This document shows positions 35,607 to 56,254 of a stretch of 64,000 nucleotides of DNA, piece by piece (the stretch's first letter is position 1; every line of letters starts with the position of its first letter). The DNA lies in contig JAQWOB010000035.1 in assembly GCA_029246085.1 (NCBI GenBank), forward strand, positions 12,407 to 76,406. The letters run 5' to 3'. A program made the position numbers and the translations under genes. The notes under the pieces were generated by a model that had not been told where the DNA came from, made no database searches, and was given only the letters and a program-made list of their open reading frames with translations. The DNA comes from Gammaproteobacteria bacterium. Its GTDB lineage: Bacteria > Pseudomonadota > Gammaproteobacteria > GCA-002705445 > GCA-002716945.

Positions 35607-35882
35607 ATGAAAAAAATATCGTCATTCATACCTGTGCATGTTATCAATAAGAATGACTTAATCAAAGGCTTAACTTCTTATATTTCAAATGTCTTTCCAA
35701 AGGATGTGCTTAATAATATAGAAGTAGGCTCTATTAAAGATAATGTGCTTATAATCAGCTGCAAAAATAGTTCAGTTGCAACACTTATGCGGTTCGAAAA
35801 ACAGAGATTTATTGATTTATTGCGTGGCAACAATATTTGTAAAATTGATGATATTAAAGTGACTATTATTAATTATGACTGA
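35607..35882 (+). CDS. DUF721 (DciA-like) protein
   Basis: 91 aa, on the opposite strand between secA and lpxC. This is the position occupied by a DUF721 gene in Pseudomonas and many gammaproteobacteria. Confidence 0.5.
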
Positions 35883-36790
35883 ATAATATGAGGTTCAGGC
35901 GTACTATAAAATATTGGAGACTTTTCATTATCTTCAATGGTTGCTTCTTCCCAGGCATCTACATTATTAACTAATTCTCTTAATAAGAGGTTGTTCAAAT
36001 GGTGTCCAGACTTATAAGCAGAAAAAGAGCCAATTAATCCATGTCCTAATAAATATAAATCACCAATCGCATCTAATATTTTATGTTTAACGAATTCATC
36101 TTGAAAACGAACTCCTTCTTCGTTTATAACCTTGTAGTCATCAATCACTATTGCATTATTAACACTTCCACCTAATGCTAGATTATTTTTACGTAATAAC
36201 TCAATATCTTTGGCAAAACCAAATGTTCTAGCACGGCTTACTTGACTTAAGTACGACACAGAAGAAAAATCTATTTCAGACGACTGCGAGCTTTCACTGA
36301 ATGCTGGATGGTTAAAATCAATTGTAAAGGCTACTTTGAATCCATCAAAAGGTTCAATTTTTGCCCATTTTTCATCTTGTCTCACTTCAATTTTTTTCTT
36401 GATCCTAATGAACTTCTTGGTATCATCTTGTTCTTGGATACCAGCAGATTGAATCATAAATACAAATGGTCTTGCGCTACCATCCATTATTGGTACTTCT
36501 GGACCATCGAGTTCTATTAGAGCATTATCTATCCCTAGACCCGCTAGAGCAGAAAGTAAATGTTCAACTGTTGATATTTTAGCAGTTTTATTTGATAAAG
36601 TTGTAGAGAGTCTAGTGTCATATACATTCTCTAGAGACGCCTTGATTGGGTCAGACTTAAGATCTGTTCTTACAAAAGCAATCCCTGCATTTACTGGTGC
36701 TGGTTTTAAAGTTAGAGTTATTTTTTTCCCAGTATGAAGCCCGACTCCTGAGGCCTTTATTTTACTGGACAATGTTCTTTGTTTAAGCAT
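35873..36790 (-). CDS. lpxC: UDP-3-O-acyl-N-acetylglucosamine deacetylase
   Basis: 305 aa; [24 protein letters not shown]-terminus and conserved HH motif (KSGHHLNN). Confidence 0.9.
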
Positions 36791-36885: not shown

Positions 36886-38136
36886 TTAAAGTTCCCGCTG
36901 AAAATACACTGCGAATTTTTTCCAAACTACTTCAAAATATCTTAGAAATGGATTTTCAGATTTTTGTCTATGAGGCATCTCACTAAGCTTTTCATCTTTA
37001 TACAATAATAACCCGACAGCTGTTGCATATCTTGTTTTTCCGCTCAAGTTTTGTATTCCAGTTATTTCTTTTGGACTGCCTATCCTTGTTGGCATCAGTA
37101 ATTTATTTTCAGCATATGCATCTAGGCCATTTAGCTTGCAACCTCCGCCAGTAAAAACAATACCAGCCCTAATTTTTGATACCCACCCACTAGAGTTAAT
37201 TTCCTCTTCTATTTGTTGGAATATCTCATCCACTCTACAAGTAATCATATGTGTAAGAATTGGTTTATTAACTTCAGATGCAGGTTTATCAGAAATTGAT
37301 GGTACTGGTATATTCACCGCAGTATCATTTGTCTCATTAATTAAACTACCATACTTCTGTTTTATATCTTCAGCTGCTTCAAATGAAGTACGTAATCCTA
37401 TTTGAATATCCTTGGTGACCATTTGGCCAGCAAGAGGGATTACAGCAGTATGCTTTATATCGCCATCAGTAAAGATAGCAATATCTGTAGTTCCTCCACC
37501 AATATCTACAAGACATACACCTAAAGATTTTTCTTCATCTGTTAAAACTGAATAACTAGAAGCTACCGGCTGCAATACAAATTCATCAACTTCTAAAAAA
37601 CTATTTTCTATACATTTTGTTAAATTTTTCTTAGCAGTTGTTGAACATGTAATAACATGGACATTTGCTTCCAATCTTTTACCTGCCATTCCAATTGGCT
37701 CTTTTATGCCCATTTGTCCATCTATGGTAAAATATTGAGGTATTCTATGAAGAATTTCTTGATCAGCAGGTATGCTAATATCACTTGCACTTGCTATAAC
37801 CTTATCTTTATCTTCTTGCGTGACTTCATCATTTAGAATATTAATAGCTGCATTACCATTATAACTTTGAATATGATTCCCGGCAATACCGGTAATTACT
37901 TTGGTAAATTTACAATTTGTCATGGCTCTAGCCTGATCTTTTGCTTTGCGAATACTTCTCACGGTTGCATCAATTTCAGAAATAACACCTTTATTTAGGC
38001 CATTACATGACTCTTGACCGATGCCCACTAACCTTAACTCTCCATCTTCATCATAGTCAGCAACTAAACATAAAACTTTAGTAGTTCCTATATCAAGAGC
38101 AACGATAAATTCATCTTTAATTGTAGTATTTGCCAT
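36886..38136 (-). CDS. ftsA: Cell division protein FtsA
   Basis: 416 aa actin-fold protein (ALDIGTTKV, DIGGGTTDIAIF). Confidence 0.9.
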   Translation of the reverse strand: MANTTIKDEFIVALDIGTTKVLCLVADYDEDGELRLVGIGQESCNGLNKGVISEIDATVRSIRKAKDQARAMTNCKFTKVITGIAGNHIQSYNGNAAINILNDEVTQEDKDKVIASASDISIPADQEILHRIPQYFTIDGQMGIKEPIGMAGKRLEANVHVITCSTTAKKNLTKCIENSFLEVDEFVLQPVASSYSVLTDEEKSLGVCLVDIGGGTTDIAIFTDGDIKHTAVIPLAGQMVTKDIQIGLRTSFEAAEDIKQKYGSLINETNDTAVNIPVPSISDKPASEVNKPILTHMITCRVDEIFQQIEEEINSSGWVSKIRAGIVFTGGGCKLNGLDAYAENKLLMPTRIGSPKEITGIQNLSGKTRYATAVGLLLYKDEKLSEMPHRQKSENPFLRYFEVVWKKFAVYFQREL

Positions 38137-38818: not shown

Positions 38819-39754
38819 TTAATACTCTAAAAGTAATAAAAGTAATTGATCATATGAAAAGCCATTCTCTTTTGCAGACTTAGGAACTAAACTATGATCA
38901 GTCATTCCTGGTATAGAGTTAATCTCAATTAAATTAATTGATGAATCTTTATCCATAAAGAAATCAACACGCCCCCAGTTAGAACATCCCATGCTATTAA
39001 AGGCCTTCATGCAAATTAAATTAATATTTTCACGGACATCTTCTGAAAACTCAGGAAATGAAAAAATAGTATCATTATCTAAATACTTAGCTTCATAATT
39101 ATAAAACTCTCTCTTTGTTTCTATTTTAATTATTGGAAAAACTTCATTATTGATAATAGGAGCAGTATATTCTGGAGCAGTAATAAATTCTTCAATAAAA
39201 TACTCATGTGCATTGGCGCTATTAAGGGAAAGTTTTTTTAATATATCAGTGCAGCTAGATGAATAAAAATTAGCGCTATCAAATATTTTTATACCTACGC
39301 TTGACCCAGATTCACATGGTTTTAAAATAAATTTTTCATCAAACATTTCCTTTATATCTTTTGAAGAAATATTATCAGATAATTTTAAATAATTTGGTGT
39401 TTTTAATTTATTTCTTAACCAAATTTCTTTGGTATGAACCTTATTGAATGAAAGTTTTGAAGACTTTGAGTTTGAGCCAACATATTTAATAGATAACCTG
39501 TCTAAATAACTTTGTACTAGACCATCTTCACCACCAGACCCATGAATTAAGTTTAGCACAAGGTCTATATTATTAGATTTAATAAATTTAGAAAGTAAAT
39601 CAATATCATCATATTGAAAATCAAAAATAAAAGTATTTAAATTATTGCCTAGGAGTGATTCGTGAGCAGATTTACCGCTATCTAAAGATACTGGTCTTTC
39701 ATCAGACCAACCACCACATAATACTCCAATATTTTTTCCAGATAACTTATTCAT
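38819..39754 (-). CDS. ddl: D-alanine--D-alanine ligase
   Basis: 311 aa ATP-grasp protein (VLCGGWSDERPVSL, LIEINSIPGMT). Confidence 0.85.
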   Translation of the reverse strand: MNKLSGKNIGVLCGGWSDERPVSLDSGKSAHESLLGNNLNTFIFDFQYDDIDLLSKFIKSNNIDLVLNLIHGSGGEDGLVQSYLDRLSIKYVGSNSKSSKLSFNKVHTKEIWLRNKLKTPNYLKLSDNISSKDIKEMFDEKFILKPCESGSSVGIKIFDSANFYSSSCTDILKKLSLNSANAHEYFIEEFITAPEYTAPIINNEVFPIIKIETKREFYNYEAKYLDNDTIFSFPEFSEDVRENINLICMKAFNSMGCSNWGRVDFFMDKDSSINLIEINSIPGMTDHSLVPKSAKENGFSYDQLLLLLLEY

Positions 39755-40616
39755 TACTATTTGAGTATATACAAATCTCTCTGGTTAAAGAGATATTATA
39801 TTTATTTTTAATTAATTTTGAAACATATTTGATTAGCTGAATGAGATCTTTACATGAACCACTTCCATCATTAATAAAATAATTACAATGTTTTTTTGAT
39901 ATATATATACCGCCAATTTTTCTTTTTTGAATATCAAGAGAATCAATAAGTGAGCTTGCTGGAGTATTCTTTGAGGGATTCTTGAAGATACAGCCTGACG
40001 ACCATTGTCTTACAGGTTGAGTAATGCTTCTATGCTTGGAATATTCCTTAAGAAGATTTACATCAAATACCTTTCTTTTATTTATAACTAATAATGCATC
40101 TAAAAATAATAAAATATTATTTTTATCAACACTACGATAAGAAGTTTTAACTTTTTTATATGAAATATTCGTTATATCGCCTATGCTATTAACGACATTA
40201 ACAGAATCAACAGAATTCCATATTGATTGTTTAAATGCACCAGCATTCATTGCTAATGCTCCACCAATTGTTCCTGGTATTCCATGAAGAAACTCAAAGC
40301 CAGCTATAGACTTCTTATGGCAAAACTTTGCGAGTCTCGCACATGATATGCTGGCAGAAACAGATATATATTTATTATCAATGATGGAAATATGCCTATT
40401 ATGATATTTACTTAAAGAAATAATATCAGACTTATATCCATTATCTGAAAATGCAATATTTGAGCCTTTACCGATAACCAGTGTTTTTGGCAATAATAAT
40501 ATTTTTTTCAATCTAGATATATCTTCCAGAGATTCTGGAAGATATATTTTATTTGAATTTCCACCAATGCGAATTGTTGTAAAACTTTTTAGGGCTATAT
40601 TTTTTTGTATTATCAT
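39747..40616 (-). CDS. murB: UDP-N-acetylenolpyruvoylglucosamine reductase
   Basis: 289 aa; FAD-binding GIPGTIGGALAMNAGA. It sits in the slot that murC occupies in E. coli-type dcw clusters. Confidence 0.85.
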   Translation of the reverse strand: MIIQKNIALKSFTTIRIGGNSNKIYLPESLEDISRLKKILLLPKTLVIGKGSNIAFSDNGYKSDIISLSKYHNRHISIIDNKYISVSASISCARLAKFCHKKSIAGFEFLHGIPGTIGGALAMNAGAFKQSIWNSVDSVNVVNSIGDITNISYKKVKTSYRSVDKNNILLFLDALLVINKRKVFDVNLLKEYSKHRSITQPVRQWSSGCIFKNPSKNTPASSLIDSLDIQKRKIGGIYISKKHCNYFINDGSGSCKDLIQLIKYVSKLIKNKYNISLTREICIYSNSNE

Positions 40617-40619
40617 AGT

Positions 40620-41693
40620 TTATCTAATTAGTTTCAAAGAATCTTCCATAATAATATTTATAGCATTTGACGGAAATATATTTTGTATATTTTTTGATAA
40701 CATATACATCCGCTTTTGATCATTTAAGAGAATGTTGGCAATAGTGACAAAATTCTCAATAAAATCTATTTTTTCTTCTAACAAAATAGCAGCAGAATTC
40801 TTAGCTAGATGGCTAGCATTAAAAAATTGGTGGTTATCTGTTGCATGAGGAAACGGAACTAACAAGGCTGCTATTCCTATTTTTGATAGTTCAGATATAG
40901 ATGTCGAACCAGCTCTACATATCACTAAATCTGCCCAATCATATAACTCCTCGATTTTTTCAGAATATGCCAACACAGTTGCATCTATAGAATATTTTAA
41001 ATATTTATTTTGTACCAACTCCGCATGATTAGGGCCACTAATATGTTTTATGGAGATATTAATACTATGAAAGTGAGAAAAAGCAAAAGGCATTGTATTA
41101 TTTAAAAATTCTGCACCTTGGCTACCTCCCATAACTAAAATATTGATACAAGGATTATTATCGATATATTTTTCTTCAGGTTTCTTTACTTTATCAAATG
41201 ATGTTCTAACAGGATTACCCGTATGTATTATTTTTTTACTATTTTTTTTAAAACTTAAAGGAAATGTTTCATAAACACGTTTAGCAAAATAATAATTAAT
41301 TTTATTAGCTGTACCAGCTATTGAATTTTGTTCATGAACTACCATTGGTATTGATGATAGAAAAGAAGTTATAGAGGCTCCAACACTAACATAGCCTCCA
41401 AATCCAATTACCAGAGATGGCTTATATTTTTTAAGCAGCATAAATGATTCATATATGGATTTTAAAAAATTAAATAGGCCTAATATTTTTTTCAGTGATG
41501 ATTTCCCTCGTATCCCTTGGGAACTTACATGTTCGATAATTACTGATGAATTATTTACTACTTTATTTTCAAGACCATTTTTAGTTCCAATCCATAAAAT
41601 CTTATAACCAAGCTTTATATATTCTTGCGCAATAGTATATGCAGGATATACATGTCCACCAGTGCCGCTAGCTAGAATTGCAATTATTTTCAT
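40620..41693 (-). CDS. murG: UDP-GlcNAc:lipid I GlcNAc transferase MurG
   Basis: 357 aa GT28 protein (IIAILASGTGGHVYPA). Confidence 0.9.
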   Translation of the reverse strand: MKIIAILASGTGGHVYPAYTIAQEYIKLGYKILWIGTKNGLENKVVNNSSVIIEHVSSQGIRGKSSLKKILGLFNFLKSIYESFMLLKKYKPSLVIGFGGYVSVGASITSFLSSIPMVVHEQNSIAGTANKINYYFAKRVYETFPLSFKKNSKKIIHTGNPVRTSFDKVKKPEEKYIDNNPCINILVMGGSQGAEFLNNTMPFAFSHFHSINISIKHISGPNHAELVQNKYLKYSIDATVLAYSEKIEELYDWADLVICRAGSTSISELSKIGIAALLVPFPHATDNHQFFNASHLAKNSAAILLEEKIDFIENFVTIANILLNDQKRMYMLSKNIQNIFPSNAINIIMEDSLKLIR

Positions 41694-41699
41694 ATTAAA

Positions 41700-42896
41700 T
41701 TAATACCCTCTTTTAACAGCATGACTAATTTTCTGGCGATTTTCAATTTGTATTCTAATCAATAGACCAATAAAAATAAACATCATTAAAAGATTGGTTC
41801 CTCCATAACTAATAAACGGTAATCCCATCCCCTTAGTTGGAGCCAAACCTGTATTAACCATTATATGTATTAAAGCCTGATAAGTAATAAAAAAACCTAA
41901 TGTAAAACTTAAATTTCCTGCAAATATAAGATTATTATCATATGATTTATTAGCAAGCCTGACAATTCTAAACAAAATAATACCAAATAAGATAAGTACA
42001 ATTAAAGAAAAAAATAGCCCAAGTTCTTCAGCAATTAAAGCAAATATAAAATCATTATATGACTCAGGTAAATAGCTAAGTTTCTGAACACTAGAGCCTA
42101 ACCCTAAACCAAAAAATCCTCCTTTTCCAAATGCTAAGAGTGATGCTATAAGTTGGTAACCACCCCCGGACTGATCATCCCAAGGATTCATAAAAGATAT
42201 GATTCTCCTAAATCTATATGGCTCATAGAGTATCAATGGGACAGCTGTTAGAAAAGCCAGTGATATATAAGAAAATAAATATTTTAAATGTGCCCCAGCT
42301 ACTAACATTAAAGAAAAAAATGTAAAAACAAGTAGCGCTGTACTACCAAAATCTTTCTGATAAAGAATAATTAAAGATAATGCAACAATCATGAATAGGC
42401 ATTTATTAAAACTCTTGGTTACATCATGTTTGACAATAAATCCAGAAATCCAAAACATCACAAATAATCTTGACACTTCAGAAACCTGTATAGTTATAAA
42501 ACCTAAGTCAAGCCATCTTTTTGCTCCATTTATTTCTTTTCCTAACCCAGGGATAAATATTATCAATGAAATAATAAAAGAAAATAATAAAAAATATTTT
42601 CCATAATCATAATAAAAACTTAGTTTAATTTTAGAAATTATTGCTGAAAGAACTATTCCCATGGATAAATAGATTAAATGTTTAGTAATAAAATAATAAG
42701 GGTTTGATTTCTGATCTAATGCATAATCAAGTGTAGCTGAAGTAATCATTATCATTCCTATAGATAATAAAGCAACAAAGCATATGATTAAGGTATGATC
42801 TATGCCTTGGCTTTCACTAATTAATATATTCTTTTTAATAAAATCACTTAACAATGTTCTGAACCGCAGAAATAAATGCAGCACCTCTTTCTTCAT
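41700..42896 (-). CDS. ftsW: Peptidoglycan polymerase FtsW (SEDS family)
   Basis: SEDS multi-TM protein. Start placed at MKKEV (42896); the ORF track's 42950 start would overlap murD by 107 nt. Even the chosen start overlaps murD by about 50 nt. Confidence 0.8.
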   Translation of the reverse strand: MKKEVLHLFLRFRTLLSDFIKKNILISESQGIDHTLIICFVALLSIGMIMITSATLDYALDQKSNPYYFITKHLIYLSMGIVLSAIISKIKLSFYYDYGKYFLLFSFIISLIIFIPGLGKEINGAKRWLDLGFITIQVSEVSRLFVMFWISGFIVKHDVTKSFNKCLFMIVALSLIILYQKDFGSTALLVFTFFSLMLVAGAHLKYLFSYISLAFLTAVPLILYEPYRFRRIISFMNPWDDQSGGGYQLIASLLAFGKGGFFGLGLGSSVQKLSYLPESYNDFIFALIAEELGLFFSLIVLILFGIILFRIVRLANKSYDNNLIFAGNLSFTLGFFITYQALIHIMVNTGLAPTKGMGLPFISYGGTNLLMMFIFIGLLIRIQIENRQKISHAVKRGY

Positions 42897-44151
42897 AATT
42901 TTTAAACATGTCAAAGCTTGGGCTGGCAGGAGATAACAAAACATTATCATTAGCTAATGAGTGTGATAATGATATTTCAACGGCAGACTCAATACTCTTG
43001 GCATCTATCGTTTTAGTAGTTATTTTTAGCTGGCTCTTGATATATTCTTTATTTTCGCCAATAAATATTACAAGTTTAACCTTTTGATTTATCAAAGAAC
43101 TCAATGACTCATAATTCATATCCTTCATAGATCCGCCAAGTATTAAAATAATTTTCTCATCGATGCACTCCAGTGCAGCCTTTGTTGATGCACAATTTGT
43201 AGACTTTGAGTCATTATACCAATTTATATTATTTGATGATTCAATCAACTCTATTCTATGAGGTAAATAATTAAAATCACTTAAAGCATTTAAGGAATTC
43301 TTGATATTAACCTTAATAATATCTAATATAGAGATAACTCCTAATATGTTTTCAAGATTATGCTTTCCTTTATATTCTAAATTTTCATTTTTAAAATATA
43401 TCTTGGAGCCATCGTAATTTAAATCTTTAATTATGGAGCCATTAATAATAATTTCTTCAGTATCGGCTATGCCATAAGTCTTAATTTTTTTTGTACCGTC
43501 AGTAAGATGATTAATTGAATTTGAAGCTAAGGAAAAAGATGAATCATTATATATTGATAATTTTATTTTTGAGTAATTTTCTATATTTTTATGTCGCTCC
43601 AGATGATCATTTTCAATATTCGTAATCACACTAATAAATGATTTTAAATCTGACATATACTCAAGCTGATAACTAGATAGCTCAAGTATGATGTAATCAT
43701 AAGTATTGTTTATGATTGAAAGAGGAGGTATTCCATTATTTCCACACGCAATACAACTATAACCTATTTTATTAAATGCATATTTTAGCATTGTCACCAT
43801 GGTAGTCTTTCCATTAGTTCCGGTAACGGATATTAGCTTACTATCACAGTATCTTTTAAAGATATCAATATCTGTTGTAATGTTAATGTTATGTCTTTTA
43901 ATATCTTTAAATATCCTATGATTTTTATCCAGACCTGGGCTAATTATTACTTCATCAACATTACTTAGAAGATCAACGGGGTACTCTTTAAAATAAATAG
44001 AATCAAGATTAATTCCTCTAAAGTTAGAATTAAGAAAATAGTCTTTATCTCTAGTATCAAATATCCTAAAGGGGATATCTTTAGACTTAAAAAAATCTGC
44101 GCATGATATGCCTGTAATGCCAATACCTAGTATTAATTTATTTTTTGACAT
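42844..44151 (-). CDS. murD: UDP-N-acetylmuramoylalanine--D-glutamate ligase
   Basis: 435 aa Mur ligase (VTGTNGKTT). Confidence 0.9.
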   Translation of the reverse strand: MSKNKLILGIGITGISCADFFKSKDIPFRIFDTRDKDYFLNSNFRGINLDSIYFKEYPVDLLSNVDEVIISPGLDKNHRIFKDIKRHNINITTDIDIFKRYCDSKLISVTGTNGKTTMVTMLKYAFNKIGYSCIACGNNGIPPLSIINNTYDYIILELSSYQLEYMSDLKSFISVITNIENDHLERHKNIENYSKIKLSIYNDSSFSLASNSINHLTDGTKKIKTYGIADTEEIIINGSIIKDLNYDGSKIYFKNENLEYKGKHNLENILGVISILDIIKVNIKNSLNALSDFNYLPHRIELIESSNNINWYNDSKSTNCASTKAALECIDEKIILILGGSMKDMNYESLSSLINQKVKLVIFIGENKEYIKSQLKITTKTIDAKSIESAVEISLSHSLANDNVLLSPASPSFDMFKNYEERGAAFISAVQNIVK

Positions 44152-49703: not shown

Positions 49704-50873
49704 CTAGTCAGCTTGTTGCCTTAAGAAAGCAGGTATATCTATATTCTCTGCTTTTTCTTTTTCTGTAATTGTATTGCTAGTTATAGGATCACTATAGCTA
49801 GAAGTTGCTGTTGATGAAACATTGGCTGTTGTCATTGCTGCCATTGTTCCATTAGATGAAGATATGCCTGTTTGACTATGAGATATATTTTCTTCTAAAG
49901 CATCTGGATTTTCAGAAAATTCTTCAAAACCTGTTGCTATCAGAGTCACTCTTAATTCTCCCAAACTATCTTCTTCTTTTATACAACCTACAATAACGGT
50001 TGCATTTTCATTTGCAATTTCTTTAACTCGCTCGCCTATTACACCAAACTCATTAGAAGTTAAATTTGCTCCAGCTGTAATATTAACTAATACACCACTT
50101 GCGCCATGCAAGTCTATATTATCTAATAAAGGACTATTTAATGCGGCTTGAACAGCTTCTTCCGCACGATTATCACCTGTCGCACAACCAGAACCCATCA
50201 TTGCTTTACCTCTGCCTGACATTACAGTTTTAACATCAGCGAAGTCAACATTAATGAAACCTCTTATGGTTATAATTTCAGCAATACCTTTTACAGCCCC
50301 TCTCAAAACATCATTTGCATTTTCAAAAGATGAGAATATTGAGTTATCACCTCCAAATACTTCAGATAGCTTTTCATTAGGTATTACAATCAATGAGTCA
50401 ACCCACTCACTCAATGCTTCTATACCTTGCTCAGCATGCAACATCCTTTTAGCTCCTTCGAACTCATATGGTTTTGTTACAACAGCTACTGTTAATATTC
50501 CTGCATCTCTTGCAATTTGAGCAATAACTGATGCGGCTCCAGTGCCGGTACCACCACCCATTCCTGCAGCAATAAATAACATATCAGCACCTTCAATAGC
50601 AGAAGATAACTCTTCTTTTGCTTCTAAAGCTGCTTGCCTTCCTTTTTCTGGATCAGCTCCTGCTCCTAGACCTTTAGTGATCTCTGATCCAATTTGTATC
50701 ATTGTAGCGCCTTTCACATCTCTCAAAGCCTGAGAATCTGTATTTGCTAAAATAAATTCTGCACCATGAATCTTAGATTCAAGCATTGACATGACAGCAT
50801 TACCACCACCGCCGCCAACACCAATCACCTTTATCACAGCATTCTGATTATACTCATTAACTAACTCAAACAT
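49704..50873 (-). CDS. ftsZ: Cell division GTPase FtsZ
   Basis: 389 aa; GVGGGGGNAV tubulin signature, C-terminal conserved peptide DIPAFLRQQAD. Near-collinear with E. coli FtsZ. Located between ftsL and ftsI, which is atypical. Confidence 0.95.
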   Translation of the reverse strand: MFELVNEYNQNAVIKVIGVGGGGGNAVMSMLESKIHGAEFILANTDSQALRDVKGATMIQIGSEITKGLGAGADPEKGRQAALEAKEELSSAIEGADMLFIAAGMGGGTGTGAASVIAQIARDAGILTVAVVTKPYEFEGAKRMLHAEQGIEALSEWVDSLIVIPNEKLSEVFGGDNSIFSSFENANDVLRGAVKGIAEIITIRGFINVDFADVKTVMSGRGKAMMGSGCATGDNRAEEAVQAALNSPLLDNIDLHGASGVLVNITAGANLTSNEFGVIGERVKEIANENATVIVGCIKEEDSLGELRVTLIATGFEEFSENPDALEENISHSQTGISSSNGTMAAMTTANVSSTATSSYSDPITSNTITEKEKAENIDIPAFLRQQAD

Positions 50874-50887
50874 ACTACACCTCCGGT

Positions 50888-51157
50888 TTATTCAACCAAA
50901 TCTAAATAAATTATTTTCTTTTTTGATGGAATTTCCATTCCAAGACTTTTTTCAATATTGGTATTTACTAACTTCTGATTAATTAGTTTTCCCTTAGTAT
51001 CCAGCAACCTCTTATGCTCATTTAATTCGAAAGATAATTCTTGCTCAATATTTTCAATACTAATATTCATGGTTCTATTTTTATGCTTTAAATGAACAAC
51101 GGTAAAAGCTGATATTGTAATAATAAATAATATAAATAAATTAAACATAATCCTCAT
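50888..51157 (-). CDS. ftsL: Cell division protein FtsL
   Basis: 89 aa bitopic protein with a TM then coiled coil; immediately downstream of rsmH with a 17-nt overlap. Confidence 0.7.
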   Translation of the reverse strand: MRIMFNLFILFIITISAFTVVHLKHKNRTMNISIENIEQELSFELNEHKRLLDTKGKLINQKLVNTNIEKSLGMEIPSKKKIIYLDLVE

Positions 51158-52085
51158 TAGCTTTTTCCAGTATATTTAATTTCGCAGACCTAGATCTTGG
51201 ATTTAAATCAATCTCATCCTTACTAGGTTTAATTGACTTAGCAACAATATTGAACATTTTTTTTAAAAATTCACTTTTTATAGGTAAGTTTCTTGGAGTA
51301 GAAATATTTTCATCCGTTACCGCAAGAAAATTTTTAATTACTCTGTCTTCTAGAGAATGATATGTTAAAAGTACTAATCTACCTTTTGGAGCCAGAATAT
51401 TATAACTATTACTCAATACATCTTTTAAAACTTCTAACTCTTTATTCATGAAGATTCTTATGGCTTGAAACGTTCTTGTGGCATTATGTTTATGCTTTTC
51501 ATTTCTAGGCATAGCTTTATCTATTATTTTGGCTAACTGTCCAGTATCTGAAATTTTTTCTTGATCCCTCTGGTATACTATTGCTCTAGCGATACGTCTC
51601 GAGTACCTTTCATCTCCATACTTCCAAATTATATGTGATAACGTTTGTTCATCAACGGTTTCTAACCATTCGCAAGCAGAAATACCAGATGATTGATCAA
51701 ACCTCATATCTATAGGTCCATTTTTATTAAAACTGAATCCTCTACCTGCTTCATCAAGATGGTGTGAGGAAACTCCTAAATCAAATAGAATTCCATTTAT
51801 TGAACCATATATGCCCCATTCTCTAGAAAAATTTTCTAATTCTGAAAAACATCCATGTTTAAGGGTGAATCTTTTGTCGCTAATAATATCTTCTCTAATC
51901 ATATTAATCGCATATGTATCTTTATCGATTGCATAGAGTCGACCATCGGAATCTAAAGCATCTAAAATCTTTCTTGAATGGCCGCCAAATCCAAATGTCG
52001 CATCAACATAAGTACCATTAGGCACAATCTTCATAGCATTAATAGACTGATTAAGCATTACGGGTATATGTTTCGGAGCAATCAT
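51141..52085 (-). CDS. rsmH: 16S rRNA (cytosine1402-N4)-methyltransferase RsmH (MraW)
   Basis: 314 aa; HIPVML and DATFGFGGHS motifs. Confidence 0.9.
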   Translation of the reverse strand: MIAPKHIPVMLNQSINAMKIVPNGTYVDATFGFGGHSRKILDALDSDGRLYAIDKDTYAINMIREDIISDKRFTLKHGCFSELENFSREWGIYGSINGILFDLGVSSHHLDEAGRGFSFNKNGPIDMRFDQSSGISACEWLETVDEQTLSHIIWKYGDERYSRRIARAIVYQRDQEKISDTGQLAKIIDKAMPRNEKHKHNATRTFQAIRIFMNKELEVLKDVLSNSYNILAPKGRLVLLTYHSLEDRVIKNFLAVTDENISTPRNLPIKSEFLKKMFNIVAKSIKPSKDEIDLNPRSRSAKLNILEKANEDYV

Positions 52086-52282
52086 TATTGAATACCTTTT
52101 TTATATTTCATAATATGTTCATATGCATTTCTTGCATCTATGAATTTCTCAGTTGACTTAATATCATCAGGGTTCTTATCAGGATGATATTTTTGAGCAA
52201 CTCTCATAAATGCCTGTTTGATGACTCTAACGTCTTCATTTCCAGTTACACCCAATGCTCTATAATATCTATCTAATTTCAT
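52085..52282 (-). CDS. J-domain-only protein (DnaJ-like, 65 aa)
   Basis: YYRALGV...KQAFMRVAQKYHPDKNPDD...ARNAYEHI is a J-domain with the HPD motif. Start and stop each share one nucleotide with the mraZ stop and the rsmH start. Confidence 0.65.
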   Translation of the reverse strand: MKLDRYYRALGVTGNEDVRVIKQAFMRVAQKYHPDKNPDDIKSTEKFIDARNAYEHIMKYKKGIQ

Positions 52283-52734
52283 TAAATTCTAATATCTGAT
52301 AAAACAGATTCCTCTGATTCATCTGTTTCTTCAGATCTCCATTTATTGACTTTATTATTCCAAATATCATCGCTCCAAATTTCAAATTTTTGACCTTGTC
52401 CTATTAAAGTGACTTTTTTAGACATCTCAGCAACGAGTCTAAGAGGCTTAGGTAATAATATTCTTCCGTTGGAATCTAACTCTAAATCCTCTGCATGGCC
52501 TATTAGTAAGCGCTGTATTCTTCTAGTATTTTTAGTAAAGCTTGGTAAGTCATTGATTTTACTTTCAATATTAGAGAAAATAGTTGCCGGATAAAGGAGT
52601 AAGCATTTTTCTTCTGAATCAATCGTAACAACCATATTGCCATTCGACTGATCACTAATAGTATTTCTATACTTGGTTGGTATAGTTAACCTGCCTTTTC
52701 CATCCAAGTTTATGTTATGGATACCTTTAAACAT
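52282..52734 (-). CDS. mraZ: Transcriptional regulator MraZ
   Basis: 150 aa; duplicated DxxxR-type MraZ repeats (LDGKGRLTIP, LDSNGRILLP). Confidence 0.9.
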   Translation of the reverse strand: MFKGIHNINLDGKGRLTIPTKYRNTISDQSNGNMVVTIDSEEKCLLLYPATIFSNIESKINDLPSFTKNTRRIQRLLIGHAEDLELDSNGRILLPKPLRLVAEMSKKVTLIGQGQKFEIWSDDIWNNKVNKWRSEETDESEESVLSDIRI

Positions 52735-52899
52735 TTACCATTATTCCCCACAATCTTACATAAATTACCATATATCAACACTATATGACTTTTTATTGAT
52801 GTATGCAAGGCTTTGGCTTCATAAATATATAGAATATACTAAAAATAGTCTATATTAATCAAATACTTATATTTAACAAGAGCTTATCTTGATATAGTG

Positions 52900-53240
52900 A
52901 TTTTATAATTAAAAAGTAGTCTAAGAGCCAACCGATAAGCCGGGTTCTGTCATGTATGATCATTAATCTGGGATTTTTGTCGCCAAAAACCTCTAGCAGC
53001 TTACCATATAGCGTGTCTTAGGCTGACAAAATGCTATAAATTTGCTTTGCTCCTAGTGGGGTTTGCCTCAACCATACTTGTTACCTCGTATGTGGTGAGC
53101 TCTTACCTCACCTTTTCACCCTTACTAATATAAAATATTAGCGGTTATTTTCTGTAGCACTTTCCGTAAACTCACGTTTCCCAGGCGTTACCTGGCACTA
53201 TTGCCTATGGAGCCCGGACTTTCCTCTGCTTACACAGCGA
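52900..53240 (-). ncRNA. rnpB: RNase P RNA (bacterial type A)
   Basis: The reverse complement contains universal P4 and flanking elements matching E. coli M1 RNA: GAGGAAAGTCCGGGCTCCATAGG, GTGCCAGGTAACGCCTGGG, GTAAGGGTGAAAAGGTG, GGTAACAAG...GAGCAAAGCAAAT and ACAGAACCCGGCTTATCGG. P1 forms between AGAGTCAAC (5') and GTTGGCTCT (3'). Ends approximate to within about 5 nt. Confidence 0.9.
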
Positions 53241-53295
53241 TCATATAGTTGACTCTCGATATAAGTATAGAGAACTTTAATATATATAGGAATAT

Positions 53296-55119: not shown

Positions 55120-55722
55120 ATGAATATAAATAAAGAAGATATAACAATAGTAATATTAGCAGGTGGAAAATCCGAGAGAATGGATGGCCAGGATAAAGGT
55201 TTAATGCGGATAAACAAAAAATATGTTATCAAACATTTATATGATATCTGCAAAGAATACTCTAATGAAATTTATGTTAATGCTAATAGGAATATTGATA
55301 TATATAATAAAATGGGGCTAATAACTTGGCAGGATATATTAAAGGATTATCAAGGACCCTTATCAGGCATATATACATCACTATTTAATACTAAAACAAA
55401 ATATCTAATAACTCTACCATGCGATGGTCCATTACTTAGTCATACATACTTTGAGCGCATGACTAACATTAATAATCATTTTGATGTTAGAGCTGCTCAT
55501 AATGGAGATAGGATACAGCCCGTATATTCCTTAATAAAAAAAGATCTATTGAATAACTTAAAATCATTTATAGATACTGGTCAGAGAAAAATTGATAAAT
55601 GGTATAATCAATGTAGCCTAGAATTAGTAGATTTCTCAGATGAGAAAAATATATTTATTAATATAAACAGCCAAGAAGACTTGATAGAATATAAAACACT
55701 AATAAATAAAAGCATAAAATAA
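55120..55722 (+). CDS. mobA: Molybdenum cofactor guanylyltransferase MobA
   Basis: 200 aa; ILAGGKSERMDGQDKGL, VNANR, GPLSGI and PCDGP motifs align with E. coli MobA. Confidence 0.75.
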   Translation: MNINKEDITIVILAGGKSERMDGQDKGLMRINKKYVIKHLYDICKEYSNEIYVNANRNIDIYNKMGLITWQDILKDYQGPLSGIYTSLFNTKTKYLITLPCDGPLLSHTYFERMTNINNHFDVRAAHNGDRIQPVYSLIKKDLLNNLKSFIDTGQRKIDKWYNQCSLELVDFSDEKNIFININSQEDLIEYKTLINKSIK

Positions 55723-55723
55723 T

Positions 55724-56254
55724 ATGGATAATACAAAAAGAATAGCATGGTGTATTACTGGTTCTGGTCATTATCTAAAAGAATCAATAGAGATTATATT
55801 TACTCTAAAAAATGTAGACTTATTTCTTAGTGGAGCAGGCGAGGAAGTTCTTAAATGGTATGACTATAGTCTTGAAGATTTTAAATCAAAAGGAATTAAG
55901 GTTTTTAAAGATATTACAGCCAGCTCTGCTCCTGTTAGTTTACTATATGAGAATGTATATAAGCTAATTGTAGTTTCTCCTGCAACATCTAATACTATTG
56001 CACAAATGTCTTATGGATTATCAGATACTTTGGTGACAAATATGTTTGCACAAGCTGGTAAATGCAAAATACACTCAATAGTCTTTGCCTGTGATACTGA
56101 GCCTACGGTAATAACACAAGCACCAAAAAAGTCTGTGACATTATACCCACGTGATATAGAGTTAGAAAATTATGAAAAATTAAAAAAATTTAAGAATGTT
56201 GATGTTGTGGATAATGTTATGAAATTAAATCGAGCTCTAAAAAAATGGGTATGA
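55724..56254 (+). CDS. Flavoprotein of the AfpA/DmrB-like (PF02441) family, candidate dihydromethanopterin reductase
   Basis: 176 aa; N-terminal IAWCITGSGH flavin-binding start typical of the Flavoprotein family. Located in the H4MPT-biosynthesis island. Confidence 0.5.
   Translation: MDNTKRIAWCITGSGHYLKESIEIIFTLKNVDLFLSGAGEEVLKWYDYSLEDFKSKGIKVFKDITASSAPVSLLYENVYKLIVVSPATSNTIAQMSYGLSDTLVTNMFAQAGKCKIHSIVFACDTEPTVITQAPKKSVTLYPRDIELENYEKLKKFKNVDVVDNVMKLNRALKKWV

What the first reader, a model, noticed from the sequence alone, without database searches (positions are those of the whole stretch)
52085..52282. J-domain mini-gene inserted between mraZ and rsmH with single-nucleotide overlaps
A 65-aa ORF encodes nothing but a J-domain (HPD motif present). 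It is wedged between mraZ and rsmH (mraW), which are adjacent in essentially all bacteria. Its ATG shares a nucleotide with the mraZ stop, and its stop shares a nucleotide with the rsmH ATG. This strongly implies translation as part of the mra operon. A stand-alone J-domain would recruit DnaK/Hsp70 to an unknown client. Its placement at the head of the division/cell-wall operon suggests a link between Hsp70 activity and division or rRNA-methylation functions.
Basis: partly seen in the sequence, partly recalled or inferred. Interest (0 to 1): 0.5.

Follow-up and report, generated by a model that had tools for sequence, protein, structure and literature searches.

The report
Minimal J-domain gene inside mra operon
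A real, strongly conserved 65-residue gene that encodes only a J-domain (the part that activates the Hsp70 chaperone DnaK) sits between mraZ and rsmH at the head of the cell-division operon in a whole lineage of uncultured marine Gammaproteobacteria, which suggests, but does not prove, a built-in link between chaperone activity and division or ribosome genes.

Summary
On the minus strand, 52085..52282 is a 65-aa ORF. Its ATG overlaps the mraZ stop and its stop overlaps the rsmH ATG, both as TAATG.

It is a true J-domain: Pfam PF00226 scores 53 bits against a cutoff of 27.8. The best PDB match is the E. coli DnaJ J-domain, aligned without gaps. The AlphaFold model (pLDDT 88.5) shows helices I-III and the HPD loop, with no helix IV and nothing else.

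It is a functional gene, not a chance ORF:
- dN/dS is 0.06-0.2, like mraZ and rsmH.
- HPD is kept in at least 116 of 118 family members.
- All 55 metagenomic loci retrieved through the mraZ operator motif alone, and long enough to judge, carry an intact 62-66-aa J ORF between mraZ and rsmH. All but five junctions overlap or abut; those five leave 1-2 nt before rsmH, and one mraZ/J gap came out as an unchecked 199 nt.

The lineage is deep (RsmH down to about 48-55% identity), low-GC and marine. Everywhere it also has ftsZ moved to just after ftsL.

No phage copy, closer donor J-domain or published description was found.

Function is inferred. Most likely the protein stimulates the DnaK ATPase through HPD, at a dose tied to mra-operon expression. 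Its client (divisome, RsmH/30S or MraZ) is unknown. I rate it a new variant of a known kind, of moderate interest.

The parts
52085..52282 (-). Mini J-domain gene, 65 aa. Predicted helix I is residues 3-10, helix II 18-32, HPD 33-35 and helix III 41-64. There is no helix IV, G/F region or client-binding domain.
   Evidence: ORF. PF00226 at 53.3 bits, E 3.1e-14. Gapless match to E. coli DnaJ residues 4-63. AF2 pLDDT 88.5. Foldseek top hits are all J-domains; 5NRO_B at rmsd 1.2 A over 50 residues. dN/dS 0.06-0.2.
52178..52186 (-). Codons for His33-Pro34-Asp35, the HPD signature needed for Hsp70 ATPase stimulation.
   Evidence: Motif scan places YHPDK from 52189 on the minus strand. Across 118 family members H is kept in 116, P in 116 and D in 118.
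52280..52284 (-). TAATG junction: mraZ stop and J start share one nucleotide.
   Evidence: Read directly. Of the 12 loci, 11 show a 1-nt overlap (TAATG or TGATG). In 55 further loci the overlap is 4 nt in 32, 1 nt in 21 and zero-gap abutment in 1; one gap came out as 199 nt and was not checked.
52083..52087 (-). TAATG junction: J stop and rsmH start share one nucleotide.
   Evidence: Read directly. In 55 further loci the overlap is 8 nt in 23, 4 nt in 21 and 1 nt in 6; five have a 1-2 nt gap.
52094..52099 (-). AAAGGT inside the last J codons (Lys-Gly), 9 nt before the rsmH ATG. It looks like the Shine-Dalgarno site for rsmH. Equivalent AAGGA, AGGAGG or AGGAAT motifs occur in relatives.
   Evidence: Sequences printed. 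That it acts as a ribosome-binding site is inference.
52282..52734 (-). mraZ, 150 aa, first gene of the operon. It is translationally coupled to the J gene.
   Evidence: PF02381 at 1.9e-34. TIGR00242 at 145.8 bits against a cutoff of 98.
51141..52085 (-). rsmH (mraW), the 16S rRNA m4C1402 methyltransferase, 314 aa, immediately downstream of J.
   Evidence: PF01795 at 1.2e-102. Homologues are named RsmH by NCBI and JGI.
52780..52808 (-). Promoter-like element TTGCAT-17 nt-TATAGT, about 50 nt upstream of mraZ and conserved across the lineage.
   Evidence: Alignment of 17 loci by eye. The generic promoter scan did not list it because the -35 hexamer matches only 3 of 6 positions, and that scan was not above chance overall. 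That it is a promoter is inference.
52736..52780 (-). Five TG(G/T)NN boxes at exact 10-nt spacing (TGTTG, TGGTA, TGTAA, TGGGG, TGGTA) between the -10 element and the mraZ ATG. They resemble MraZ-binding repeats.
   Evidence: Sequence. GTGG-type repeats at a 10-nt period in mra promoters of diverse species are described in bioRxiv 10.1101/2022.02.09.479790. MraZ binding here was not tested.
50888..51157 (-). ftsL, 89 aa; operon context.
   Evidence: PF04999 at 26.7 bits. TIGR02209 at 42.4 bits.
49704..50873 (-). ftsZ in an unusual place, between ftsL and ftsI and three genes downstream of J. This position co-occurs with J in every related locus examined.
   Evidence: PF00091 and PF12327. Gene order.

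Best explanation
The ORF is a real, translated gene for a minimal J-domain protein: three helices plus the HPD loop, 65 aa, basic (pI about 9.6).

It was inserted once between mraZ and rsmH in the ancestor of a deep lineage of uncultured, low-GC marine Gammaproteobacteria, and purifying selection has kept it there since. This much is shown.

Inferred: it is co-transcribed from the MraZ-controlled mra promoter. It has no Shine-Dalgarno site of its own, so it is probably translated by termination-reinitiation coupling to mraZ, and it passes ribosomes on to rsmH in the same way.

Inferred from established J-domain biology (the helix II / HPD / helix III face binds Hsp70-ATP and triggers hydrolysis): it stimulates the DnaK ATPase. 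It has no client-binding domain. So it would act as a free catalytic J-domain that works with clients DnaK binds directly, at a dose tied to expression of the division and cell-wall operon.

The most likely beneficiaries are proteins made from the same mRNA: FtsZ three genes downstream, other divisome proteins, RsmH and MraZ. No specific client is identified.
For: Domain identity:
- PF00226 at 53.3 bits.
- Best PDB sequence match is the E. coli DnaJ J-domain (1BQZ, 5NRO_B), gapless and with the same numbering.
- AF2 model pLDDT 88.5 with helices at 3-10, 18-32 and 41-64.
- Foldseek top 48 hits are all J-domains.

Real gene:
- dN/dS is 0.06-0.2, against 0.04-0.10 for mraZ and 0.05-0.09 for rsmH.
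- The family has 275 clusters at 90% identity. The 120 listed are 41-106 aa, nearly all 61-66 aa.

DnaK-directed constraint, across 118 members:
- H33 in 116, P34 in 116, D35 in 118, K36 in 116, F47 in 117, K22 in 117.
- Position 27 is always K or R; position 25 is always F or Y.

Fixed position:
- Every context examined is mraZ-J-rsmH, with J identity down to 48%.
- With ascertainment independent of J (RsmH homologues and the operator motif), 4 of 4 and 55 of 55 loci carry an intact J.

Operon membership and coupling:
- Overlapping or abutting stop and start codons at nearly all junctions; five J/rsmH junctions leave a 1-2 nt gap.
- No terminator-like site between mraZ and rsmH.
- Conserved promoter and 10-nt-periodic boxes upstream of mraZ.

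Precedents:
- JD-only J-domain proteins are a recognised group (PMC10410713).
- The J plus G/F part of a cyanobacterial DnaJ is enough for viability (PMC7609799, abstract).
Against: - There is no direct evidence of translation, DnaK binding or any phenotype.
- Position 26, Lys in E. coli DnaJ and important there to my recollection, is Met in 71 and Ile in 17 of 118 members.
- Helix IV is absent.
- From memory, an isolated E. coli J-domain stimulates DnaK only weakly unless a substrate peptide is present.
- No conserved surface beyond generic J-domain positions was found that could dock a partner, so the division-specific part rests on position alone.
- I could not check that these genomes encode DnaK, DnaJ and GrpE. 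None lies in the window.
Confidence: 0.6

Rival explanations
1. Ribosome-biogenesis co-chaperone. The mini J-domain works with RsmH, the gene it is coupled to, and brings DnaK activity to late 30S assembly intermediates. Its basic charge would help it sit on rRNA.
For: The J stop overlaps or abuts the rsmH start in 50 of 55 loci, and the last J codons carry the probable rsmH ribosome-binding site. The protein has pI 9.6 and a basic C-terminal tail, with K or R at positions 61-62 in nearly all members. That DnaK and DnaJ assist ribosome assembly in E. coli is my own knowledge and was not checked here.
Against: The basic tail can be explained by the purine-rich Shine-Dalgarno sequence embedded in those codons. 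There is no RNA-binding motif and no evidence of an RsmH contact. Coupling to mraZ is just as tight as coupling to rsmH.
Confidence: 0.12
2. Regulator of the regulator. J plus DnaK remodels MraZ oligomers, as DnaK and DnaJ remodel RepA or sigma-32. This would tune repression of the mra promoter, with J made in a fixed ratio to MraZ through translational coupling.
For: The J start overlaps or abuts the mraZ stop in 54 of 55 loci, and J has no Shine-Dalgarno site of its own, so its output should track MraZ translation. The MraZ-box-like operator is conserved. MraZ overproduction is toxic and represses its own operon (bioRxiv 10.1101/2022.02.09.479790).
Against: No interaction evidence. MraZ in this lineage looks ordinary: the Pfam match starts at profile position 1 and TIGR00242 is above its cutoff. 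The hypothesis does not explain why only this lineage would need it.
Confidence: 0.08
3. Modulator or competitor rather than activator. A free J-domain occupies the J-binding site of DnaK and competes with full-length DnaJ or CbpA. This would damp or redirect the chaperone cycle during rapid growth.
For: The protein has only the DnaK-binding module and no client-binding part. K26 is replaced by Met or Ile in most members, which could change affinity or efficacy.
Against: Strict conservation of HPD and F47 fits productive ATPase triggering better than mere occupancy. A wasteful or inhibitory protein seems unlikely to be fixed in small, streamlined genomes of about 1-1.2 Mb at about 70% completeness.
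Confidence: 0.1
4. Non-functional remnant. It would be a fragment of a duplicated dnaJ 5' end, kept only because it carries the rsmH translation signals, or not translated at all.
For: It aligns without gaps to DnaJ residues 1-65 and stops where helix IV would begin, as a truncated copy would. The rsmH Shine-Dalgarno-like motif lies within its 3' end.
Against: dN/dS is about 0.1 over the whole length. The ORF is intact in 55 of 55 loci with 50 distinct sequences. HPD and core residues are nearly invariant while synonymous sites are saturated.
Confidence: 0.02

Closest known systems
J-domain of class A DnaJ (E. coli DnaJ residues 1-70; PDB 1BQZ, 1XBL, 5NRO chain B)
   Same: It is the best sequence and structure match. 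The alignment is gapless with identical numbering: HPD at 33-35, F47, and basic residues at positions 22, 23, 27, 31 and 36 of helix II and the loop.
   Different: The protein ends at residue 65. It has no helix IV, G/F region, zinc finger or C-terminal client-binding domains. Full-length DnaJ models score far below their cutoffs (52 against 338 bits). K26 is mostly Met or Ile. It is encoded in the dcw operon rather than next to dnaK.
'JD-only' J-domain proteins (Malinverni et al. 2023, PMC10410713)
   Same: By domain annotation it consists only of a J-domain.
   Different: That group is a heterogeneous bin, slightly enriched in eukaryotes, and many members have long unannotated regions. This protein is essentially the bare domain, forms one orthologous family, and has a fixed operon position.
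ARC6 / Ftn2 (ZipN), the J-domain division protein of plastids and cyanobacteria (Vitha et al. 2003, cited in PMC4164004)
   Same: It is a precedent for a J-type domain tied to FtsZ-based division.
   Different: From memory, ARC6 and Ftn2 are large multi-domain membrane proteins. This one is a 65-aa soluble protein with a canonical HPD. No homology beyond the J-domain was tested or is expected.
Small bacterial and organellar J proteins: ActJ (NCBIfam NF050028, 93-position model), DjlA, and chloroplast AtJ8/AtJ11/AtJ20 (PMC2844072)
   Same: They are short proteins dominated by a J-domain.
   Different: ActJ scores 25.4 bits against a cutoff of 150, and DjlA 24.3 against 162, so it belongs to neither. 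None of these is reported inside the mra/dcw operon.
Canonical mraZ-rsmH-ftsL-ftsI head of the dcw cluster (E. coli K-12)
   Same: mraZ is first, rsmH and ftsL follow, genes are tightly packed, and operator repeats lie upstream.
   Different: In E. coli, mraZ and rsmH are 1 nt apart with no gene between them, and ftsI follows ftsL. Here J is inserted after mraZ and ftsZ after ftsL.

Membership tests
J-domain (Pfam PF00226, DnaJ domain) | Profile score above the curated gathering threshold | tested here: met
   53.3 bits against 27.8, E 3.1e-14, profile positions 2-56 of 63
J-domain (Pfam PF00226, DnaJ domain) | HPD tripeptide in the loop between helices II and III | tested here: met
   H33-P34-D35. 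Kept in 116, 116 and 118 of 118 family members and in 55 of 55 independent loci.
J-domain (Pfam PF00226, DnaJ domain) | Antiparallel helix II / helix III hairpin fold with helix I packed on it | tested here: met
   AF2 pLDDT 88.5 with helices at 3-10, 18-32 and 41-64. Foldseek against PDB: 5NRO_B rmsd 1.2 A over 50 residues, and all top hits are J-domains.
J-domain (Pfam PF00226, DnaJ domain) | Fourth helix completing the canonical four-helix domain | tested here: not met
   The protein ends at residue 65, where E. coli helix IV would begin. The model shows no fourth helix. This feature is typical of the domain rather than strictly defining.
J-domain (Pfam PF00226, DnaJ domain) | HPD-dependent stimulation of Hsp70 (DnaK) ATPase | not testable with these tools
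   Needs biochemistry. Only the conservation of the interface residues could be shown.
Class A DnaJ (NCBIfam NF008035 / TIGR02349) | G/F region, zinc-finger region and two C-terminal client-binding domains; score above the model cutoff | tested here: not met
   65 aa in total. NF008035 scores 52.1 against 338 and TIGR02349 scores 45.3 against 377, with only the first ~60 model positions matched.
JD-only J-domain proteins (PMC10410713) | No annotated domain other than the J-domain | tested here: met
   PF00226 is the only Pfam hit and covers residues 6-60 of 65. The group is defined.
ActJ cold-adaptation protein (NCBIfam NF050028) | Score above the equivalog cutoff | tested here: not met
   25.4 bits against a cutoff of 150
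DjlA (NCBIfam NF006948) | N-terminal transmembrane domain plus C-terminal J-domain; score above the cutoff | tested here: not met
   24.3 bits against 162, with only the J part matched. The protein is 65 aa and has no hydrophobic segment.
mra (dcw) operon member | Same strand as mraZ and rsmH, no intergenic gap, no internal terminator, and a position conserved across relatives | tested here: met
   Overlaps. No terminator-like site between mraZ and rsmH. 55 of 55 and 4 of 4 J-independent loci carry it.
mra (dcw) operon member | Co-transcription and translation demonstrated | not testable with these tools

The most novel reading that the evidence does not exclude
The mini J-domain is a dedicated division co-chaperone. 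It would be hard-wired into the mra operon together with a relocated ftsZ, and would direct DnaK to FtsZ or another nascent divisome component, or to MraZ or RsmH. That would make it a previously unrecognised, lineage-wide coupling of Hsp70 activity to cell division in an abundant group of streamlined ocean bacteria.
Probability: 0.2. Interest if true: 0.7.

Novelty: new variant of a known kind. Interest (0 to 1): 0.45.

Why it matters
The mraZ-rsmH pair at the head of the dcw cluster is one of the most conserved gene adjacencies in bacteria, and the role of these two genes in division is still poorly understood. Here an Hsp70 co-chaperone module has been inserted exactly between them and kept under strong selection. 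It is present in every locus examined across a deep marine lineage.

This gives a concrete, testable handle on how chaperone activity is linked to division, ribosome maturation or MraZ control. It also provides a natural example of about the smallest J-domain that evolution keeps: three helices and 65 residues. That is useful for defining the minimal requirements for Hsp70 activation.

If it turns out to be only a general DnaK booster, the finding is a modest curiosity of operon evolution.

Tried and rejected
1. Phage origin. A profile-guided scan of IMG/VR returned only generic J-domains (at most 53% identity over partial matches) and no family member. PHROGs gave only weak hits to long proteins of unknown function.

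2. Donor J-domain. In the exhaustive representative search the family stands apart (P0007, P0219, P0221, P0226, P0227; 75-138 bits). After it comes an undifferentiated background of J-domains at 70 bits or less. The window protein is about 50% identical to many unrelated J-domains, about as much as to its own most distant orthologues. No donor could be named.

3. Taxon below class.
- NCBI titles and cluster names say only 'Gammaproteobacteria bacterium'.
- The TOBG tables give 'novelOrder_B', GC 31-32%.
- Literature searches for the MAG identifiers and for SAR86 with methanopterin or TOBG gave nothing usable.
- I suspected SAR86 from memory but could not test it, so I do not claim it.

4. Outer boundary of the J-bearing lineage. 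RsmH homologues down to 55% identity all had J.

5. Generic promoter scan. It was not above chance (17 sites against 18.5 expected) and missed the conserved TTGCAT/TATAGT pair.

6. Literature.
- No paper combines mraZ with a J-domain in this sense.
- Nothing was found on ActJ.
- The E. coli MraZ paper I tried to fetch from a recalled PMC id is not held.

7. DnaK or other J proteins in the window: none.

8. One dN/dS run crashed on rsmH for the L016/L017 pair because of start-offset framing. Values from before the crash are used.
Full report
**Observation.** On the minus strand, window 52085..52282 is a 65-codon ATG ORF. Reading the sequence, plus-strand 52280-52284 is 'catta', which is TAATG on the minus strand. 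The mraZ stop (TAA) and the ORF's ATG therefore share one A. The same pentamer at 52083-52087 joins the ORF's TAA to the rsmH ATG. The neighbours are MraZ (PF02381, 1.9e-34) and RsmH/MraW (PF01795, 1.2e-102), and downstream come FtsL and FtsZ. For comparison, E. coli K-12 has mraZ and rsmH 1 nt apart with nothing between them, followed by ftsL and ftsI.

**Is it a J-domain?** Yes.
- Pfam PF00226 scores 53.3 bits (gathering score 27.8, E 3.1e-14) over profile positions 2-56 of 63.
- A profile of the family finds the E. coli DnaJ J-domain as the best solved structure (1BQZ, 5NRO chain B). The alignment is gapless and the numbering is identical.
- An AlphaFold2 model built on 24 homologues has mean pLDDT 88.5, with helices at 3-10, 18-32 and 41-64 and the HPD loop at 33-35.
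- Foldseek against the PDB returns J-domains in all of the top 48 places. 5NRO_B fits at rmsd 1.2 A over 50 residues.

The protein ends where helix IV of DnaJ would begin. It has no G/F region, zinc finger or C-terminal domains, and the full-length DnaJ, CbpA, DjlA and ActJ models of NCBIfam all fall far below their cutoffs. It is a three-helix, J-domain-only protein with pI about 9.6.

**Is it a real gene?** A 65-aa ORF proves nothing in a 31%-GC window, and one search lists many spurious ORFs of similar size. Three lines of evidence show it is coding.
- The family is large and uniform. The first search found 72 clusters and the profile search found 275 clusters at 90% identity. Nearly all of the 120 listed are 61-66 aa, and all come from marine metagenomes or 'Gammaproteobacteria bacterium' MAGs. 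The exhaustive search of 1.8 billion representatives shows the family (75-138 bits, 64-66 aa) standing clear of the generic J-domain background at 70 bits or less.
- Pairwise Nei-Gojobori dN/dS is 0.06-0.2 for J, against 0.04-0.10 for mraZ and 0.05-0.09 for rsmH in the same genome pairs.
- Residue conservation follows what a working J-domain needs. Across 118 members H33 is kept in 116, P34 in 116, D35 in 118, K36 in 116, F47 in 117 and K22 in 117. L10, I21, Y54 and I57 are invariant.

**Position and distribution.** Every context I could see has the order mraZ-J-rsmH-ftsL-ftsZ-ftsI.
- Ten GTDB species representatives show it.
- Contigs found through J homologues show it, including the most divergent J (48% identity, L105).
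- Searches starting from J are biased towards finding J, so I used two J-independent routes. Four RsmH homologues at 55-60% identity all had J upstream.
- The second route was a scan of metagenome contigs for a 19-nt motif of the conserved mraZ operator. It returned 120 loci, of which 62 have mraZ just downstream (the rest are chance matches). All 55 that extend far enough carry an intact 62-66-aa J ORF with HPD between mraZ and rsmH, and none lacks it. Those 55 give 50 distinct J sequences, forming 38 clusters at 90% and 8 at 70% identity.

The junctions stay tight although their exact form changes.
- mraZ/J: 4-nt overlap in 32 loci, 1-nt overlap in 21, abutting in 1. One gap came out as 199 nt and was not checked.
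- J/rsmH: 8-nt overlap in 23 loci, 4 nt in 21, 1 nt in 6, and a 1-2 nt gap in 5.

Across the lineage RsmH falls to about 48-55% identity and FtsZ to about 65%, while J falls to about 48%. J therefore evolves about as fast as RsmH, faster than MraZ and slower than FtsL. This is an old, single insertion that has not been lost in anything sampled.

**Taxonomy and origin.** Below class level the taxon is unresolved. The TOBG tables call three of the MAGs Gammaproteobacteria 'novelOrder_B', with GC 31-32% and about 1-1.2 Mb at about 70% completeness. No family member occurs on viral contigs. No particular donor J-domain can be named.

**Expression signals.**
- The 75 nt upstream of mraZ are highly conserved across 17 loci. 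They contain TTGCAT, 17 nt, then TATAGT, followed by five TG(G/T)NN boxes spaced exactly 10 nt apart and reaching the mraZ ATG (window 52808..52736, minus strand).
- This is the layout described for MraZ-binding repeats in mra promoters of diverse species (bioRxiv 10.1101/2022.02.09.479790). Binding here is inferred.
- RNase P RNA lies immediately upstream (52920..53256, minus strand), so the mra transcription unit most likely starts at this promoter.
- No terminator-like site lies between mraZ and rsmH.
- J has no Shine-Dalgarno-like sequence before its ATG. The rsmH start is preceded at about 9 nt by AAGG, AAGGA or AGGAGG embedded in the last J codons.

The simplest reading is that J is translated by ribosomes terminating on mraZ and hands them on to rsmH. 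That would tie its output to MraZ translation. The basic C-terminal tail of J (K or R at positions 61-62) may partly be a by-product of this purine-rich ribosome-binding site.

**Mechanism.** What is shown: a conserved, selected, J-domain-only protein encoded inside the mra operon.

What follows from established J-domain biology: the helix II / HPD / helix III face binds ATP-bound Hsp70 and triggers hydrolysis. This family preserves HPD, F47 and basic residues at positions 22, 23, 27, 31 and 36. It has no client-binding part, and I found no family-specific conserved surface beyond generic J positions. I therefore think it acts as a free catalytic J-domain whose amount follows mra-operon expression, working with clients that DnaK binds on its own.

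Precedents:
- JD-only proteins are a recognised group (PMC10410713).
- The J plus G/F part of a cyanobacterial DnaJ is enough for viability (PMC7609799).
- ARC6/Ftn2 is a J-domain division protein of plastids and cyanobacteria (cited in PMC4164004).

Caveats:
- Position 26 (Lys in E. coli DnaJ) is Met or Ile in most members.
- Helix IV is missing.
- From memory, an isolated E. coli J-domain is a weak activator without substrate.

Which client benefits is not determined. The candidates are FtsZ and the divisome, RsmH and the 30S subunit, or MraZ. The co-occurring move of ftsZ to three genes downstream is suggestive but only correlative. Rival readings are a competitor of DnaJ and a non-functional remnant. 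The remnant reading is effectively excluded.

**Comparison and novelty.** The protein belongs to the J-domain superfamily and to the 'JD-only' bin. It is not a class A/B DnaJ, CbpA, DjlA or ActJ. I found no description of a J-domain gene between mraZ and rsmH. Databases label it 'hypothetical protein', 'DnaJ domain-containing protein' or 'molecular chaperone DnaJ'. I rate it a new variant of a known kind: a known module, in near-minimal form, in a new and rigidly conserved operon context. Interest is moderate (0.45). It is a clear, testable lead on chaperone-division or chaperone-ribosome coupling in an abundant uncultured marine lineage, but function is so far only inferred.

Noticed in passing
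window 49704-50873 (-) ftsZ; 36886-38136 (-) ftsA; 35873-36790 (-) lpxC: ftsZ is not in its usual place after ftsA. It lies between ftsL and ftsI, and ftsA is followed directly by lpxC. The ftsL-ftsZ-ftsI order is present in every related locus that reaches that far, so it always co-occurs with the J gene. I did not determine whether the two rearrangements arose on the same branch.
   Followed up: partly
window 38819-41693 (-): The dcw cluster runs murG (40620-41693), murB (39747-40616), ddl (38819-39754). murC, which normally follows murG, is absent from the cluster, and murB sits in its place. I did not look for murC elsewhere.
   Followed up: no
window 52920-53256 (-): A full-length bacterial class A RNase P RNA (294.8 bits) lies immediately upstream of the mra promoter, between a methyltransferase gene and mraZ. 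The same ~530-nt gap between those two genes is seen in relatives.
   Followed up: partly
window 52736-52808 (-): A very conserved 5' region of mraZ has TTGCAT-17 nt-TATAGT followed by five TG(G/T)NN boxes at a 10-nt period. These are probably the mra promoter and MraZ operator. As a 19-nt probe it retrieved 62 true mraZ loci from metagenomes.
   Followed up: partly
L001, L004, L018-L023 mraZ calls; window 52735-52773 (-): Public gene calls give MraZ as 163 aa, starting at an ATG 39 nt upstream that lies inside the operator-like repeats. The Pfam profile and TIGR00242 align from residue 1 of the 150-aa version, so the shorter start is more likely.
   Followed up: partly
window 55120-56254 (+) and beyond; L001 and L004 1-3167: Divergently upstream of dus lies a conserved block in relatives: NTP_transf_3, a flavoprotein, DUF6513, DUF447 and a 4HFCP synthase (MfnB-like). 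This looks like a methanofuran or methanopterin-type cofactor biosynthesis cluster, which is unexpected in a streamlined marine gammaproteobacterium.
   Followed up: no
window 41700-42950 (-) and 42844-44151 (-): The longest ORF for ftsW overlaps the end of murD by 107 nt. The Pfam match to FtsW starts at residue 54, so the true ftsW start is probably further downstream.
   Followed up: no
L013 7410-8497: In one species-representative MAG (JAYNVZ010000021.1), ftsZ aligns as two pieces in different frames. This is either a frameshift or an assembly error.
   Followed up: no
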